Source: Chromera velia
Lineage: Eukaryota
Assembly: GCA_018398765.1 (NCBI GenBank)
Contig: JAHBMJ010000408.1
Coordinates: 1-48,461, forward strand
Reading direction: 5' to 3'
Length of the DNA: 48,461 nt
The notes below the pieces were generated by a model that was not told where the DNA came from, did not search any database, and saw only the letters and a list, made by a program, of their open reading frames with translations. Shown here piece after piece: positions 13,894 through 32,195 of this stretch. Position 1 is the stretch's first letter; each line of letters starts with the position of its first letter. Made by a program: the position numbers and the translations under genes.

Positions 13894-14151
13894 CGCTATG
13901 GAGTGTGGTGTAGTGGCCAGCTGTTATACGGGGCTCATTTGGTATAAGAAGTTCTACCATGCAAGGTTACTACTTCTAGACGTTTTCTTATAGACTATCA
14001 TACAACGACTTAACTCACGGCTGACTGCGTGCATGCATGCGCATAGCTTAATTACATAAACGCGAATGTGCTCGAACTGCGCGCACCTCGATATTGTCTG
14101 ACATGCTGCTTTGCATATCATTGGGCGGCTGGCTAGCCTCACAATATTACG
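13894..14151 (-). repeat. 3' LTR of the CG...CG element
   Basis: Ungapped direct repeat of 17155-17412. Confidence 0.95.
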
Positions 14152-15330
14152 TACCACCTCCCCCCTGAAGCTACGTCCACGCTGGCTTACCCAGAGAACG
14201 CAAGGGAATTTTCTAATGCAACTCTTTAGGGCAATAAAGTGGTAATCGTTGATTAGATCATCGCTTTCCCTCACTTACAGCGTCGTAAAAAATAGAACGC
14301 TTTTCTTCTCTTCTCTTTCTTTTCTTTTATCTCTCTTATTTCTGATTTCAGAATTTCCTTTACAGTCTTTCCTGTGGCTCTTCTTCTCTTTCGCATCGTC
14401 AACTCATAGTCCACTTCAATCAACCCATCACAACTCATAACCACCCTGCGTACTGCTTTCACCGTACACCCAGTGTACATACCCCCTCCCCCTTTAAGGC
14501 TGCATCCACGCTCGGTCAAAGAGAGTGAGACGCGCATGAGAACAACAACAAAAAAAAAATTCAGACGAAAAAGGACGAAAAACATATACATCGGCACACA
14601 ATGGTTCTTTCGTTCACGGAGTCTATTGGATACCATAGTACTGCATCTCCCAATCGGTTGGCCTTACAATCACCCCCGGCTCTTTCACATCTGTTCGATC
14701 CGAGTCTCCGTTAGTTTGGTGCTGCTGCTCTCAGACTGATGGAGGTTGTGGATTGATAGAAGTCTGCGCTGAAGTGCGGGCGGTCCGTACGCCCCTCATC
14801 TGTCGCACTGCAGGTCTCACTTCTGGCATAAAGGGTCTTACTTCGCCTTGATACCCATTCATCCCCCCATCATACATTCCTTCCATTTGCGGACTCCCAC
14901 GGCGTGCCAAAAATGCATACCAATCCGATTCGGCAGTGCCACTTCCTCACTCTCGATGCACAAATTCTTCCCCCATTCGTATCCGAAGAGACAAGTCTTT
15001 CCAATACTCCCACCTGATAGGATCAATCGGAGGAGAGGGCGCTGACGGTTTTGCTGGCTCTTGGGCCGCCTCTAGGGGCCGCCTGCTTCTTCTTCCTCTT
15101 TTCCTCCTTTATTTCCTCTCTTGCCTCCGTCTCGCCTGACGAAAGAATGTCAGACCATCCAACGGGACTGCAGGACAAACTTCCCCCACTCCCTCACTGA
15201 TTGGAGACAAAACGGAACTATCACCCTGCGTCGCATGCTGCAAAACAAACATCTCTTTCTTATACTTTACCTGCCGTCTCCTTTCTTTCTTCTGGTGCCT
15301 TTTCTCTTGGTCTCTCTCTGCTTTTCCCTA

Positions 15331-15933
15331 GGGGGGGGGCACTTCAGCCGGTTACACCATGGTTACTGACCTTACACCCCCCCCCTACAACCTAGCCTAC
15401 AACGTATGACATGTAACCATCAGTCAAAACTTACGACTCAAAAGTGGTGCCAATCGATTAATTACGTTTGATTATTCATAAAACTGGTTTCAAAATTGTT
15501 AAACAATTCAGGTTATGGTTAAAAATGATGAAAAATGATGTGTCACACTCACTTTGCCCCCAAACCCCCCGTAACTGGGTAACCCATAACCTTTTTTGAC
15601 CCCCCTTAAAAATGAAGTAACCTCCCTCAAGAAGCATTCAAACATGTTCCAAACATCATTTTAAATATTTTTAAAAGTTGAAAATTTGGTCGGTTACTGA
15701 GGTTAAAATGCTTATAACCAGGTAACCTGTAACCTCTTTGTATGACAAAGATAAAAAGGGGGTAACCTAAAGTAACCATCATGTGGCCTACACTTCAAAA
15801 ACACCAGATTTTGACGTAACTTGACCAGGCGGAGCTCCAAGTTGCCGGACTAGCTCGCAAAAATCTGTTTCTATTCATATTTTATGTCATTCTGGGCTCA
15901 AAATCTACCATAACCTTCCAGAGTGCCCCCCCC
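15331..15933. mobile_element. Poly-G-ended MITE, copy A (about 603 bp), nested in the LTR element
   Basis: TIR G9-CACT...AGTG-C8; many internal GGTTAC/GTAACC motifs; colinear with 26177-26750. Confidence 0.92.
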
Positions 15934-16039
15934 GAAGCTTTTCCTGGATTCTTACCATCAAAGTCATTTCCCTACCTACCTGTCTCCAAATGATTGAGCT
16001 GCGGAGATGGACTATATAGTCTTTCAGACTGGCAGTGGA

Positions 16040-16943
16040 TTTGTTCTCTCAATTCCTAACTCCTAACTCCATACAGCAATTCAAACAAGTCTTTTCCCAC
16101 ATCTCCTTCTTCCTTCCCACTCCTTTCAATCCGGTACAGCTCCATTGGAGTAGCCTCATTCATCTGACCATCCGGCTCCCTCCGGCAAAAGCCATCACAG
16201 GGGAGTTCTAACCGAAATCAAAAGTCGTCTGAGACGTTGCAAAGAACACGCCCCCATTGGCATTGACAATCCCACTCCCCTGTTATACTTTCCATGTCCC
16301 TCTGCCTTCTTTCTAGGATGACTGACTGAAGTCCGACTCGAACATCGTACTTAGAGTTTTAGTAAGTGTGGCTCCTACGGAGCTCACAGGGATACTTCTC
16401 TCTCATACCCCAGACACCTACACATCTTTTTCCTACCATGACTGATTGCTGTCAAAACCTTGCCTGCTCATTTCACCCCTCTTTCCACTTCGATTTGCAT
16501 TTCTATGTGCGCCTGGGGCTTTATGCATGCCTTCAGAGAAGACGTCTCTGGGCTGGTGGACTTTCTATTTCTTTTCCCTCCCTGCTGACTTTTTTGGGTG
16601 AACAGTATTACAGTGCTCAGATGATTGCTGAGACTGCGTTTGCTCTGTCACTTTTCTCTTCCAGGCTGTTTCTCTCAACCTGCGACTCCTGCGAGTTTTC
16701 GGTTTACCCGTATTGGTGTGTCAAGTTGCATGTTGGACTGCACTCTGCTTCTCAGAAATCTCAGTTGGTGGAATAGATGGTCTACTGGCTCCTGTAGACT
16801 CCAAGAGTCGCTCTGCAATCTCAAAACCTTCCTTCAAGAGGCTCTCACCGTTTGTTTGCACTTCTCCGGATGGAATGTCCTTGAGTTTTTGAAGTTCACA
16901 TACAAGCGAAAGAAAATTTCCGAAACATTCCCAGATCGACATG
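16040..16943 (-). pseudogene. Degenerate gag-like ORF remnant
   Basis: ORF from MSIWECF (about 16943) interrupted by stops; EATPMEL followed by a Cys-rich segment near 16150-16065, like the gypsy Gag PMEL/zinc-knuckle region. Confidence 0.45.
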
Positions 16944-17154
16944 ACCGACGTACTACTCAAGGCTTTTGAGAACTTTTTGCAAAATAAAGCAATGAACTCG
17001 TACTTTTTGTTTGTTATAGTGGTTGTGTGCGTAGTTAGTACAAGTTGTGTGAAGCTGCAAAGAGACCTCACACTGTCAGATTGAAAACGTGTTCACGACC
17101 CGAGATGGATGGTCTGCGAACTCTACTGAGGCTGATCGTTTCATTCTGCTACCA

Positions 17155-29700: not shown

Positions 29701-30244
29701 AACGAGAAAGAGAGAAGCAAGCAACGGGCAGGTATACGTGGCAGTTGAGGAGTAGAGAGATAAATTCTATTTGGGCATAAATGATAGGTTTATGGAGTGG
29801 AATGCATGTATGTGAGTTCTGGAGAGATGAAGAGGATTAGGGAAAAGAAATGAGTCAGTCCTGCATCTCCCTTGATGCAGGGTAGCGTATGCGTGGTCGG
29901 GCTCAGCATTCCGACTTCTTTCTTCACTCATGGTTCATTCGTGTGTGCGCGTCCGTGTTAGTTTGTGTTGCCTACTTGTGTGTATACCTTGCAGAGTTTG
30001 TGTGTCCGCGTTTGTCTGAAAAAATTGGAACCGAGCGTGGTCGTCAGCTTTGAGCAGCGGGCAGGTGACACACTGTAGGCCGGCTACGAGTGGCGGGCAT
30101 GCAACGGGCCTGCGGATTGGCAGCGCTATGAGGAACGCGTATGATTTATGTGGCACTGGCCGCTCTGGTGTCATGTAGCAATCTGATATGGCCTGACGTC
30201 AGAAAAGTATCAGCCTGCCTTCTAGCGACTGATTGATCTGTTTG

Positions 30245-30322
30245 GGGCGGGAGGCCAATCCGGCATTGGGGCGGGAGGCCAATCTTCCGAACATAAATCC
30301 TAATCCTCCTAATCCTAATCCC
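30245..30322 (+). mobile_element. 78-bp insertion with (AATCCT)n tail in the 3' LTR
   Basis: Absent from the 5' LTR; TTG on both sides; internal duplication of GGGGCGGGAGGCCAATC; ends CATAAATCCTAATCCT... Confidence 0.75.
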
Positions 30323-30350
30323 TTGACTGAACGTTGTGTAAACTCTTCTA

Positions 30351-31505
30351 CTCTAATGAATTGGGAGTTGAATTGGGTGTCGAATTGGTAGTACTACCAA
30401 TTTTTTACCGCCAGTAACTCCCAATTTTGAAAAATTGGTACCTAGTGCAGTGAAAGAAGTATATGGAGCTTGAAGCTAAAATTTTGTGTATGGGCTAGAC
30501 AGGGGCTCACTAGTCTCTAGCCGCAGTCATAAGACTCTAATTCATTACTAGGAACAAATTCTATGAACACTTAGAGTCACCTAAAAATTGGGAGTTACCA
30601 ATTTTTTTTTAGGACTAACTACCAATTTTTAAGAAAATCAACACCCAATTTTTTGGGGGGGACTACCAATTTTATAACTTCTCCTAGAAAGTAAAATATA
30701 TGTAGAAAGAAAGAACGCTGTAATAGAACAGTGTTGCGGCTGCACAGAACTTCATAAATCCATAAGTTTTGTATAGTTTCATAGTGTTATTCATGCTCGA
30801 AGTCCCTCCCGGCGTGATACATCATCAAAATATGCTTGCATGGCTTTCTTTCTCTTGCATAACCACGCAAAAACCAGATCTTCCAGAATAAAACGATCAT
30901 ATGAATAATGTCCCCTCTGTAGGACAAAACGTTTACAAACCTTCTTATGATACGATTCAAAGCCGTAGCATGTTCGGGAGAGAGGGGCATGATCTGAACA
31001 AAGATCAGCAGCCACTGTCCGGCATATGGAGGGATTATGAATTCTGGTAGGCTTACATGGTCAATTGGATCGATTTTCACTCTGTTTTTTATACTGGTAC
31101 GTGCAATTTGTGTAGAGCTGTCCACTGTCTGTTTTGTATTGCATTAGCGGTACACTATGACACACAAAACAAAAGTTTCAAGTTGACTCCCAATTTTTTT
31201 TTTTTGTACTACCAATTTTTTTTTCGGCGGTCCTAAAAAATTCCTATTTAAAAATTGGTAACTCCCAATTTTTAGGTGACTCTAAGTGTTCATAAAATTT
31301 GTTTCTAGTAATGAATTAGAGTCTAATGACTGCGGCTAGAGACTAGTGAGCCTCTGTCTAGCCCGTACACAAAATTTTAGTTTCAAACTTCATGTACTTC
31401 TTTTACTAGACTAGGTACCAATTTTTCAAAATTGGGAGTTACTGGCGGTAAAAAATTGGTAGTACTACCAATTTAACACCCAATTCAACTCCCAATTCAT
31501 TAGGA
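30351..31505. mobile_element. Long-TIR (about 255 bp) foldback-like non-autonomous DNA transposon with TA TSD
   Basis: 30351 to about 30606 is the reverse complement of about 31250-31505; TA at 30349-30350 and 31506-31507; empty site TTCTAGG in the 5' LTR. Confidence 0.93.
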
Positions 31506-32195
31506 TAGGTCAAACTTATATGTCAAGGAATTTCTGAATGCACATCAACGTATTTAGAGTTCCTAGCCCTGTAGAATTAACGCTAACAATTTGAGTTTGA
31601 CATGGAAATTATGATGGAATAATTAGAATCAAAACTGCATATCTAAGTGTTACAACTAGTGTTACAAAGTGTTCAAAAGTTATCAAAATAACAAATTAAA
31701 GTTGCTCTAAAGTTTTAGACTTATGTATCAAAAAATATTTAAGTCCTATAACTCAAGTTGAGAAAGACTAAAGTCGATGAAAATGAACAGAAAACATCTA
31801 GTATACGTACATATTTCAAAAAAAAATCTCAGTTTTGACAAATACTTATAACTAAGAACTTAAATGGATGTTCACGTCAGATCTAATCTCAGATGCATGT
31901 TGCCAGCTTTGATGTTCAACCCTATATATAAGTCCAGCCTCAAATCAAATCTCATCTGATTCAAAAGACTCATCAAATCGAACCTGGTCACTACGCACCG
32001 ATACCTTGCCGATTACCTTTCTAGTTCATTGAATGACGCCAAGTTTCCTCTAGGACCCCCTTGAATTCGAATTAATCTGACTTCGTTCCGTCGGCTGTCA
32101 TTTCAGCCATGCAGACTTTACGACGGATCAACTTCCGATCAAGTCCACAAGTATTCCTGCAGATCGAATGTTTTCTTTCTTTCCTTCTTTGCGGT

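What the first reader, a model, noticed from the sequence alone, without database searches (positions are those of the whole stretch)
13894..31588. RIP-like C>T hypermutation of repeats in a non-fungal genome
Seen: the two 258-bp LTRs differ at about 32 sites by hand count, with no indels and all but one being transitions, split roughly equally between CpA/TpG and CpG with a few CpT/CpC. The two MITE copies and both TIR pairs show the same bias. In the chromovirus, stops fit CAR>TAR (24362, 24470, 24599, and 28956 in HPQSDG*TER where Q is conserved), CGA>TGA and TGG>TGA (29604). Most RT/IN departures from the gypsy consensus I recall are R>H/C/W, H>Y, C>Y, P>S/L, T>I/M, E>K, G>S and D>N, all single C>T/G>A changes. 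Host exons are intact. Established: fungal RIP gives CpA>TpA in repeats, and CpG methylation alone does not explain abundant CpA hits. Inference: a repeat-targeted mutator or dense non-CG methylation acting as genome defence, which I am not aware of being described in apicomplexan relatives.
Basis: partly seen in the sequence, partly recalled or inferred. Interest (0 to 1): 0.88.

Follow-up and report, generated by a model that had tools for sequence, protein, structure and literature searches.

The report
C-to-T erosion of Chromera transposons
In this stretch of the alga Chromera velia, a free-living relative of malaria parasites, transposon copies have changed almost only by C-to-T mutations on both strands, likely because the host chemically marks cytosines in silenced repeats and the marks decay to thymine, an outcome that resembles the fungal genome defence RIP.

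Summary
The host is Chromera velia (RPL21 identical to its UniRef protein), and two public runs reproduce the window's letters. Six repeat pairs from five transposon families differ by 127 transitions and 11 transversions; the LTR pair differs 31:1 with no indel. The change has a direction: against the majority of other copies, one MITE shows 29 C>T/G>A, 5 reverse and 4 transversions. All four contexts are hit (CG 39/112, CA 42/188, CT 25/149, CC 17/165), so CpA is raised over CpC/CpT but is not the sole or top target. There are no strand runs and no sign of bursts. Host introns stay at 50% GC, which suggests the process is confined to repeats, but no host substitution control could be obtained. 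Best reading (0.55): repeat-targeted, all-context cytosine methylation with accelerated deamination, RIP-like in result but not shown to be RIP. One survey lists only four DNMT2 in Chromera; another lists a DNMT4 (RID-related) protein in its sister Vitrella. My searches found no paper on this in chromerids. One window; enzyme and methylation untested.

The parts
13538..13749 (.). Short non-coding element with 41-bp terminal inverted repeats (MITE-like); arms differ by 4 transitions, 0 transversions
13894..17412 (-). LTR retroelement 'retro1': 5-bp target duplication GTTTA on both sides, LTR ends CG...CG, primer-binding-like site beside the 17155 LTR, no Pfam hit in the two internal ORFs tested
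   Evidence: strand inferred from the primer-binding-like site and a purine tract seen in the sequence
13894..14151 (-). retro1 LTR (left), 258 bp; carries 19 of the 31 T/A states
   Evidence: letters reproduced by a single-copy contig 13589-14202 with 0 differences
17155..17412 (-). retro1 LTR (right), 258 bp; carries 12 of the 31 T/A states
15332..15933 (.). MITE copy 1 (G-run/C-run termini), nested in retro1
26177..26749 (.). MITE copy 2, nested in the chromovirus pol region; against the family majority 29 C>T/G>A, 5 reverse, 4 transversions
23933..31588 (+). Dead Ty3/gypsy chromovirus-type LTR retrotransposon (gag, protease, RT, RNase H, integrase, chromodomain) with stops and frameshifts; LTR ends TG...CA; flanking 5-mers ATTTA / ATTTG differ by one transition
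   Evidence: Pfam hits; ends; stops
23933..24189 (+). Chromovirus 5' LTR, followed by a TGG-starting primer-binding-like site
29541..29693 (+). Chromodomain at the integrase C-terminus, broken by the stop at 29604
   Evidence: PF00385 E=8.8e-9, read through with X
30074..31588 (+). Chromovirus 3' LTR, interrupted by a short repeat (about 30243-30335) and by the TIR element
30348..31508 (.). Non-coding element with about 260-bp terminal inverted repeats, inserted at a TA (Tc1/mariner-like by that target; superfamily label recalled); arms differ 14:2
11334..11900 (+). Host control: RPL21, two exons, intact, GC3 0.77; identifies the host as Chromera velia
38880..44570 (+). Host control: ATG3-family gene (boundaries approximate); its introns are 47-52% GC with TpA observed/expected 0.28
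   Evidence: PF03987 hit; composition
40528..40961 (+). Control: five tandem 83-85-bp units inside an ATG3 intron; 6 transition and 3 transversion columns, 32 CpG kept in 434 bp

Best explanation
Transposon copies in this Chromera velia window have lost cytosines to thymine on both strands and in all four dinucleotide contexts, likely because a host cytosine methyltransferase marks silenced repeats and the marked bases then deaminate much faster than other changes accumulate. Shown: the transition excess, its C>T/G>A direction, its spread over retrotransposons and DNA elements, the context order (CG and CA about twice CT and CC) and the mixed strands. Inferred: (1) repeats are recognised as heterochromatin rather than by meiotic pairing; (2) a C5 methyltransferase acts at CG, CA and less at CT/CC; (3) deamination, passive or helped by the enzyme as proposed for Zymoseptoria Dim2, fixes T gradually over cell divisions; (4) the load fills ORFs with stops and missense changes and would drive old copies towards the AT-rich, TpA-enriched intergenic islands; (5) genes and introns are spared.
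For: 127:11 transitions to transversions in six pairs, above wheat TEs (2.8) and mangrove LTRs (5.16). Direction: 29:5:4 in MITE2, a full list (per site 29/229 against 5/326, p=7e-8); 28:6:3 among the 37 of 40 listed rows with majority share >=0.6; 20:1 at conserved protein columns. Even CpC (17/165) changes 14-fold more than transversions per column (p=1e-10). CG 6 times pairs with TA at adjacent double differences, as expected from CG>TG>TA. DNA elements are hit as hard as retroelements, which excludes reverse-transcription errors. No strand runs in any of 6 copies tested (p 0.42-1.0); loads of paired copies do not differ significantly (p 0.06-0.38). The MITE rates imply a transition-only equilibrium near 11% GC, yet eight introns are 50% GC with TpA O/E 0.28, against 37% GC and 0.94 in non-coding repeat islands. 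Precedent for all-context 5mC on repeats in a protist: Naegleria; for methyltransferase-dependent mitotic C>T in repeats: Zymoseptoria.
Against: No 5mC data for Chromera were found, and one survey lists no DNMT1/3/4/5/6 for it, only four DNMT2, a family mostly acting on tRNA. That table has false zeros (Phaeodactylum all zero against DNMT3/5/6; Vitrella zero against two entries). Passive decay of plant-type methylation gives lower ratios (1.6-5.2), so an extra mutagenic step may be needed. CpG is not clearly more depleted in repeats (O/E 0.72) than in host genic DNA (0.74), and in polarised MITE2 CG was not raised (2/26). Laid contigs at a 1% threshold give a ratio of only 5.1-5.5 by places, though places saturate and include divergent subfamilies. 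The pairwise and polarised MITE counts share one copy, and TIR arms may have differed before insertion. No substitution spectrum of single-copy DNA was available.
Confidence: 0.55

Rival explanations
1. A genome-wide C>T mutation bias acts everywhere. It is visible only in repeats because they alone offer pairs to compare, and GC-biased gene conversion or selection holds genes and introns at 50% GC.
For: No single-copy polymorphism or paralogue was available as a control (contigs of X1 and X2 match host DNA with 0 differences). Host CpG O/E equals that of repeats (0.74 against 0.72). All six transitions in the intronic tandem repeat are G/A.
Against: Introns at 50% GC are far from the 11% equilibrium. 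The intronic tandem repeat is 6:3 (p=0.04 against 127:11) and keeps 32 CpG. Two short dispersed repeats beside promoters give 5:10 and 9:5 (p=5e-7, p=0.008), though they are short, gapped and more diverged. In the intronic GTCA microsatellite the C of CpA reads T in 7 units and A or G in 24 (slippage copies variants, so these are not independent events).
Confidence: 0.17
2. True RIP: duplicated DNA is detected by homologous pairing at a sexual or pre-meiotic stage, and a RID/DNMT4-like enzyme converts C to T in bursts.
For: Near transition-only, directional, CpA raised about twofold. The sister chromerid Vitrella has a protein (CEM15752) filed under DNMT4, grouping with diatom DNMT4s near the fungal clade. 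RIP context varies widely among fungi.
Against: No strand runs and no uneven loads. CpC and CpT are hit at 0.10-0.17 and CG at least as much as CA. The chromovirus interior has TpA/ApT 0.54-0.66 and (CA+TG)/(AC+GT) 1.26-1.43, outside the usual RIP thresholds (thresholds recalled; not calibrated for this TpA-poor host). The families are abundant (depth 286-1390 against 12-18 in single-copy bins of X1; a rough guide only). Short repeats (41-bp and 258-bp arms) are hit, below the roughly 400 bp cited for Neurospora, though they belong to dispersed families. Another survey holds DNMT4/RID to be confined to fungi and lists none in Chromera.
Confidence: 0.13
3. No methylation is involved: a cytidine deaminase (AID/APOBEC- or ADAT-type) is aimed at silenced repeats, or uracil repair fails in condensed chromatin, so that unmethylated C>U lesions are fixed.
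For: Only DNMT2 is listed for Chromera. The context dependence is weak, and CHH sites are hit most in MITE2 (24/167). A deaminase-type defence has been proposed for the TpA hypermutation in Bigelowiella.
Against: The 5' neighbour has only a weak effect (AC 0.27, TC 0.22, CC 0.16, GC 0.16; p=0.03), with no TpC or WRC motif (motifs recalled). The 3' order CG>=CA>CT>CC is that of methyltransferases (recalled). Both strands are hit without clusters.
Confidence: 0.12
4. Artefact: assembly or library damage, or a fungal contaminant contig.
For: The window holds N gaps and long microsatellites.
Against: Two runs from separate studies reproduce the letters of the left LTR and the element junctions with 0 differences (one of them might be the source of the assembly). 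The host gene is Chromera.
Confidence: 0.02

Closest known systems
Repeat-induced point mutation (RIP) of Neurospora crassa and other ascomycetes (RID/DNMT4) (PMC3318451 Introduction)
   Same: C>T/G>A almost without transversions, in repeats of unrelated families; CpA raised; dead ORFs; AT-rich repeat islands beside GC-balanced genes.
   Different: Here CG equals or exceeds CA in pairs, CC and CT are hit at 0.10-0.17, strands are mixed without runs, loads are even, and pairing dependence, sexual timing and the enzyme are unknown.
Dim2-dependent mitotic hypermutation in Zymoseptoria tritici (PMC8016269 passages)
   Same: Methyltransferase-linked C>T in repeats without need of sex; more than 95% of mutations C>T; the nearest working model.
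   Different: There more than 98% of hits are at CA and CG is spared; here CA is 42 of 123 scored transitions in pairs and 15 of 29 in the polarised MITE. No Dim2 is listed for Chromera.
Decay of RdDM/CMT-methylated transposons in land plants (wheat PMC2996936; mangrove 10.1101/263830)
   Same: CG and non-CG C>T excess in TEs over introns, gradual.
   Different: Plant ratios are 0.85-5.16 against 11.5 here; plants favour CG and CHG over CHH, whereas MITE2 shows CHH 24/167, CHG 3/36, CG 2/26.
All-context (CX) 5mC on repeats in Naegleria gruberi (PMC12344493 section 7)
   Same: A protist with repeat-enriched methylation in all four dinucleotides, the mark that would give this spectrum.
   Different: Naegleria has DNMT1 orthologues and low methylation; the section read does not report hypermutation.
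TpA hypermutation of integrated viral DNA in Bigelowiella natans (10.64898/2026.01.13.699255 passages)
   Same: A non-fungal, SAR-lineage, region-targeted hypermutation read as genome defence and compared with RIP.
   Different: Opposite direction (AT>GC at TpA), an adenosine deaminase proposed, measured in mutation-accumulation lines.
TpCpG RIP-like hypermutation of Pucciniomycotina (PMC3318451 passages)
   Same: Inferred from TE alignments alone, mechanism open between RIP and unusual methylation.
   Different: Strict trinucleotide target there; here the 5' neighbour matters little.

Membership tests
Fungal RIP | Differences between repeat copies are almost only transitions | tested here: met
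   127:11 pooled, 31:1 in one LTR pair
Fungal RIP | Direction C:G to T:A | tested here: met
   29:5 in MITE2; 28:6; 20:1
Fungal RIP | One strongly preferred dinucleotide, usually CpA | tested here: not met
   CG 0.35, CA 0.22, CT 0.17, CC 0.10 in pairs; CA 0.18, CC 0.11, CG 0.08, CT 0.08 polarised, chi2 p=0.27
Fungal RIP | Mutations arrive in bursts, often on one strand per round (recalled) | tested here: inconclusive
   No strand runs in 6 copies and even loads in 4 pairs; several rounds would hide runs and n is small
Fungal RIP | Confined to duplicated DNA; single-copy DNA spared | tested here: inconclusive
   Composition and three small controls favour it; no single-copy substitution spectrum
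Fungal RIP | RIP dinucleotide indices (TpA/ApT high, (CpA+TpG)/(ApC+GpT) low; thresholds recalled) | tested here: not met
   Chromovirus interior 0.54-0.66 and 1.26-1.43; LTRs and MITEs 1.05-1.46 and 0.95-1.25; host 0.44-0.51 and 1.25-1.34
Fungal RIP | Triggered by homologous pairing, with length and identity thresholds | not testable with these tools
Fungal RIP | Occurs in the pre-meiotic sexual stage | not testable with these tools
   Needs crosses or mutation-accumulation lines
Fungal RIP | RID/DNMT4 methyltransferase present and required | not testable with these tools
   Proteome not searchable here. Published tables disagree: none in Chromera, a DNMT4 entry in Vitrella
5mC-driven decay of silenced transposons | C>T excess on both strands, in retro- and DNA elements alike, even among copies | tested here: met
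5mC-driven decay of silenced transposons | CpG is the dominant target and is depleted in repeats | tested here: inconclusive
   CG highest in pairs (39/112) but 2/26 in MITE2; CpG O/E 0.72 in repeats against 0.74 in genes
5mC-driven decay of silenced transposons | 5mC present on repeats and a DNA-acting DNMT encoded | not testable with these tools
   No methylome found; only DNMT2 listed
AID/APOBEC editing of retroelements | G>A on the sense strand only, retroelements only, 5' motif | tested here: not met
   Both strands, DNA elements hit, weak 5' effect
Ty3/gypsy chromovirus-type retrotransposon (the 23933-31588 element) | LTRs, gag-PR-RT-RH-IN order, C-terminal chromodomain | tested here: met
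   Pfam PF03732, PF08284, PF00078, PF17917/17919, PF17921, PF00665, PF24626, PF00385; no RT tree was built

The most novel reading that the evidence does not exclude
Chromera velia runs a dedicated C>T mutator against repeats, a functional counterpart of RIP outside fungi, carried by a DNMT4/RID-like enzyme (as listed for Vitrella) or by one of its four DNMT2 paralogues turned onto DNA. The ancestor of apicomplexans may then have held a mutational defence that helps explain how the lineage lost nearly all its transposons.
Probability: 0.22. Interest if true: 0.9.

Novelty: new variant of a known kind. Interest (0 to 1): 0.62.

Why it matters
Chromera is the standard free-living outgroup to Plasmodium and Toxoplasma, and carries about 30 Mb of transposons. 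Whether apicomplexans methylate DNA, and whether DNMT2 can do it, is disputed (listing). This window carries a strong, directional, largely non-CG C>T footprint in a species for which one survey lists only DNMT2. Either an unannotated DNA methyltransferase exists, or DNMT2 or a deaminase does the job. All three are testable with one EM-seq run and one HMM search on a cultured alga. It would also give the uncharacterised DNMT4-like proteins of Vitrella and diatoms a candidate function. In practice, LTR ages in this genome would be overestimated if read with a neutral clock.

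Tried and rejected
No whole genome was held, so family-wide alignments and a proteome search for DNMTs or deaminases could not be run. Searches for other copies gave nothing: MITE pattern in metagenome contigs, 0; integrase query in metagenome contigs, 0 confirmed of 189 candidates; protein searches with the integrase ORF (0 of 94 candidates) and the RT/RNase H ORF (0 of 179). 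The representative search gave 150 distant RTs, at best 53% identical, so none served as a sister copy. No RNA holder was listed, which says nothing on expression. Rfam: 0 matches. The first tandem-repeat alignment (last row) was out of register and was dropped and redone; my first ATG3 exon guess was out of frame, so intron limits are approximate. Contexts from the 40 best-supported rows (CA 14, CT 6, CG 4, CC 4 of 28) were not normalised, because the tool's ranking probably disfavours sites mutated in many copies. Rejected: stop codons as evidence (any stop is one C>T/G>A from sense); APOBEC during reverse transcription (DNA elements hit, both strands); CpG-only decay; artefact or fungal contig. 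Literature blanks: Chromera with 'repeat-induced point mutation', 0 papers; Chromera with methylation terms, nothing on its DNA methylation in the listings; RIP-like outside fungi, 7 listed, none on chromerids by title and abstract start. Three papers held no mention of Chromera in the main text. 11 of 23 supplementary files of PMC9998398 were not searched, and bioRxiv supplements are closed; either could list chromerid DNMTs. A RIP review was not held. Earlier findings: none for this genome or this MITE.

Full report
Host and integrity. The first exon of RPL21 (11334-11747) is 100% identical over the query to a protein that UniRef names 60S L21 of Chromera velia CCMP2878, also held by transcriptome sources; the next hit is 76% identical. 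Both exons translate to that protein without a break. The window's microsatellite-rich introns and many transposons fit the description of this genome (PMC4501334, passages and Appendix 1). Three public DNA runs hold the first element. Laid on 13100-33000, runs X1 and X2 give single-copy-depth contigs with 0 differing letters across the left LTR and several element-host junctions. The sequence is therefore neither fungal, chimeric nor an assembly error; one run might be the assembly's source, but they come from separate studies.

Anatomy. Two intergenic blocks hold nested elements. The first has a short TIR element (13538-13749) and an LTR element (13894-17412; GTTTA duplicated on both sides) with a MITE inside (15332-15933). 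The second is a dead Ty3/gypsy element with a chromodomain (23933-31588; Pfam hits; ends), carrying a second copy of the MITE (26177-26749) and, in its 3' LTR, a long-TIR element at a TA (30348-31508). Its frames hold stops at 24362, 24470, 24599, 27890, 28338, 28578, 28956 and 29604, plus frameshifts.

Transition excess. All six pairs that the window offers for these elements were aligned: 31:1, 54:4, 14:2, 4:0, 21:4 and 3:0, in all 127 transitions to 11 transversions over 1348 columns. The ratio of 11.5 exceeds wheat TEs (2.8; PMC2996936 passages) at p=5e-8 and the mangrove LTR value (5.16; 10.1101/263830 passages) at p=0.003. LTR pairs alone (55:5) against 5.16 give p=0.06. Counted as places where any laid contig differs, the ratio is lower, 5.1-5.5; that count saturates and takes in divergent subfamilies, but it is the less extreme figure.

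Direction. Pairs do not say which base is old, so I laid the runs on MITE copy 2 and listed every place where at least half of the depth differs from the window (38 rows, all shown). In 29 the window has T/A and the family C/G, in 5 the reverse, and 4 are transversions; per site 29/229 against 5/326, p=7e-8. Three of the 5 reverse rows have shares of only 0.46-0.70 and may be C>T changes shared by many other copies. Among the 40 rows shown of about 2700, 37 had a majority share of at least 0.6: 28 forward, 6 reverse, 3 transversions; the stop at 24470 is one of the forward ones. At protein level, with 150 distant RTs, 59 of 241 conserved columns depart: 20 fit one C>T/G>A, 1 the reverse, 15 a transversion and 23 several steps.

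Context. Per available cytosine on both strands, pairs give CG 39/112, CA 42/188, CT 25/149 and CC 17/165 (p=7e-6; CA against CC+CT p=0.013; CG against CA p=0.02). Dropping sites whose neighbour also differs leaves CG 25/73, CA 42/188, CT 25/149, CC 13/138. The polarised MITE gives CA 15/82, CC 8/73, CG 2/26, CT 4/48 (p=0.27); it shares one copy with the pair count. So CpA is about twice CpC/CpT, CpG varies by element, and every context is far above the transversion rate. The 5' neighbour matters little. Derived changes fall on both strands without runs in 6 of 6 copies tested, and paired copies carry similar loads in 4 of 4 pairs (p 0.06-0.38).

Is it confined to repeats? The direct control was not obtainable, since the runs show no single-copy variation. 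Indirectly: the MITE rates imply about 11% GC at transition equilibrium, while eight host introns are 50% GC with TpA O/E 0.28 (limits approximate) and non-coding repeat islands are 37% GC with TpA O/E 0.94. A five-unit tandem repeat in an intron shows 6:3 and keeps 32 CpG; two short dispersed repeats show 5:10 and 9:5. Against confinement: CpG O/E is the same in genes and repeats (0.74, 0.72), the controls are small, and gene conversion could hold introns up.

Mechanism. The data show a directional, all-context, two-strand, even C>T load in retro- and DNA elements. That excludes reverse-transcription error, APOBEC on cDNA and CpG-only decay. It fits dense cytosine methylation of silenced repeats with fast deamination (0.55). 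Precedents are Naegleria's all-context repeat methylation (PMC12344493 section 7) and the Dim2-dependent mitotic mutator of Zymoseptoria (PMC8016269 passages), though the latter is more than 98% CA. True RIP (0.13) fails on context and on the indices here and is untested on pairing, timing and enzyme. A deaminase or a repair gap (0.12) and a genome-wide bias (0.17) stay open.

The enzyme. Supplementary Table 1 of PMC12344493 lists for Chromera velia four DNMT2 and no DNMT1, CMT, DIM2, DNMT3, DRM, DNMT4, DNMT5, DNMT6 or orphan (rows read). The same table gives zeros for Phaeodactylum, which has DNMT3, 5 and 6 (PMC9998398 passages), and for Vitrella, for which PMC9915587 lists a DNMT4 (CEM15752) and a DNMT2 (passage and supplement rows). 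The absence in Chromera is thus not secure. PMC9998398 finds RID and diatom DNMT4 moderately related, function unknown; PMC12344493 holds DNMT4/RID to be fungal only. DNA methylation by Plasmodium DNMT2 is described as controversial and low (PMC10164579, abstract start and passages). I could not search the Chromera proteome.

What is known. My searches found no paper joining Chromera with RIP or with its own DNA methylation (listings); the chromerid genome paper has no hit for 'methyltransferase' or 'DNA methylation' in its main text. The library lacks most subscription papers. Other notes there describe similar C>T patterns in early-diverging fungi and a dinoflagellate; I did not test them and they are not support. 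RIP's defining features were taken from the Introduction of PMC3318451; index thresholds, strand-run behaviour and deaminase motifs are recalled. PMC2774510 and PMC6336885 (passages) added nothing.

Verdict. This is a new variant of repeat-directed C>T decay, unusually pure in transitions and largely non-CG, in a lineage where no writer enzyme is securely known. It works like RIP in outcome but should not be filed as RIP. Interest 0.62; it would be 0.9 if a dedicated mutator is shown (probability 0.22).

Noticed in passing
window 13894-17412: retro1 has LTRs that begin and end with CG instead of the usual TG...CA, a perfect 5-bp target duplication, about 2.4 kb of interior once the MITE is removed, no Pfam hit in the two ORFs tested, and high depth in public runs: possibly an undescribed non-autonomous LTR family.
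   Followed up: partly
window 8410-8500, 23690-23770, 30243-30335: A short dispersed repeat with an ATCCT-rich tail; one copy lies inside the chromovirus 3' LTR. Its pairs give 5:10, 7:9 and 13:10 transitions to transversions, so it does not show the bias.
   Followed up: partly
window 8530-8620 and 17520-17612: A roughly 80-bp inverted dispersed repeat upstream of two host genes (9 transitions, 5 transversions); may be a promoter element or an old MITE end.
   Followed up: partly
window 26170-26760: Loose ends of other copies of the MITE continue with TAG after the terminal C run, pointing to a TAG/CTAG target preference; copy 1 lacks a clean right-hand duplication.
   Followed up: partly
host genic DNA, e.g. 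window 420-8300, 17900-23000, 33000-38400: Very strong TpA depletion (O/E 0.31-0.36) in exons and introns, against about 0.8-1.1 in repeat islands; the edges are sharp at about 17800, 23000 and 32200.
   Followed up: partly
window 45300-46700 and 8600-9050, 23060-23930, 31590-32000: AT-rich (31-36% GC) intergenic islands with no partner in the window; may be older eroded elements.
   Followed up: partly
window 10585-10902 (-) and 11334-11900 (+): RPS30 and RPL21 lie head to head; HRD1-like (33900-38330, -) and ATG3-like (38880-44570, +) genes do too.
   Followed up: no
window 40956-42160: A 1.2-kb GTCA/GTCG microsatellite inside an ATG3 intron (143 GTCA, 104 GTCG units) keeps many CpG.
   Followed up: partly
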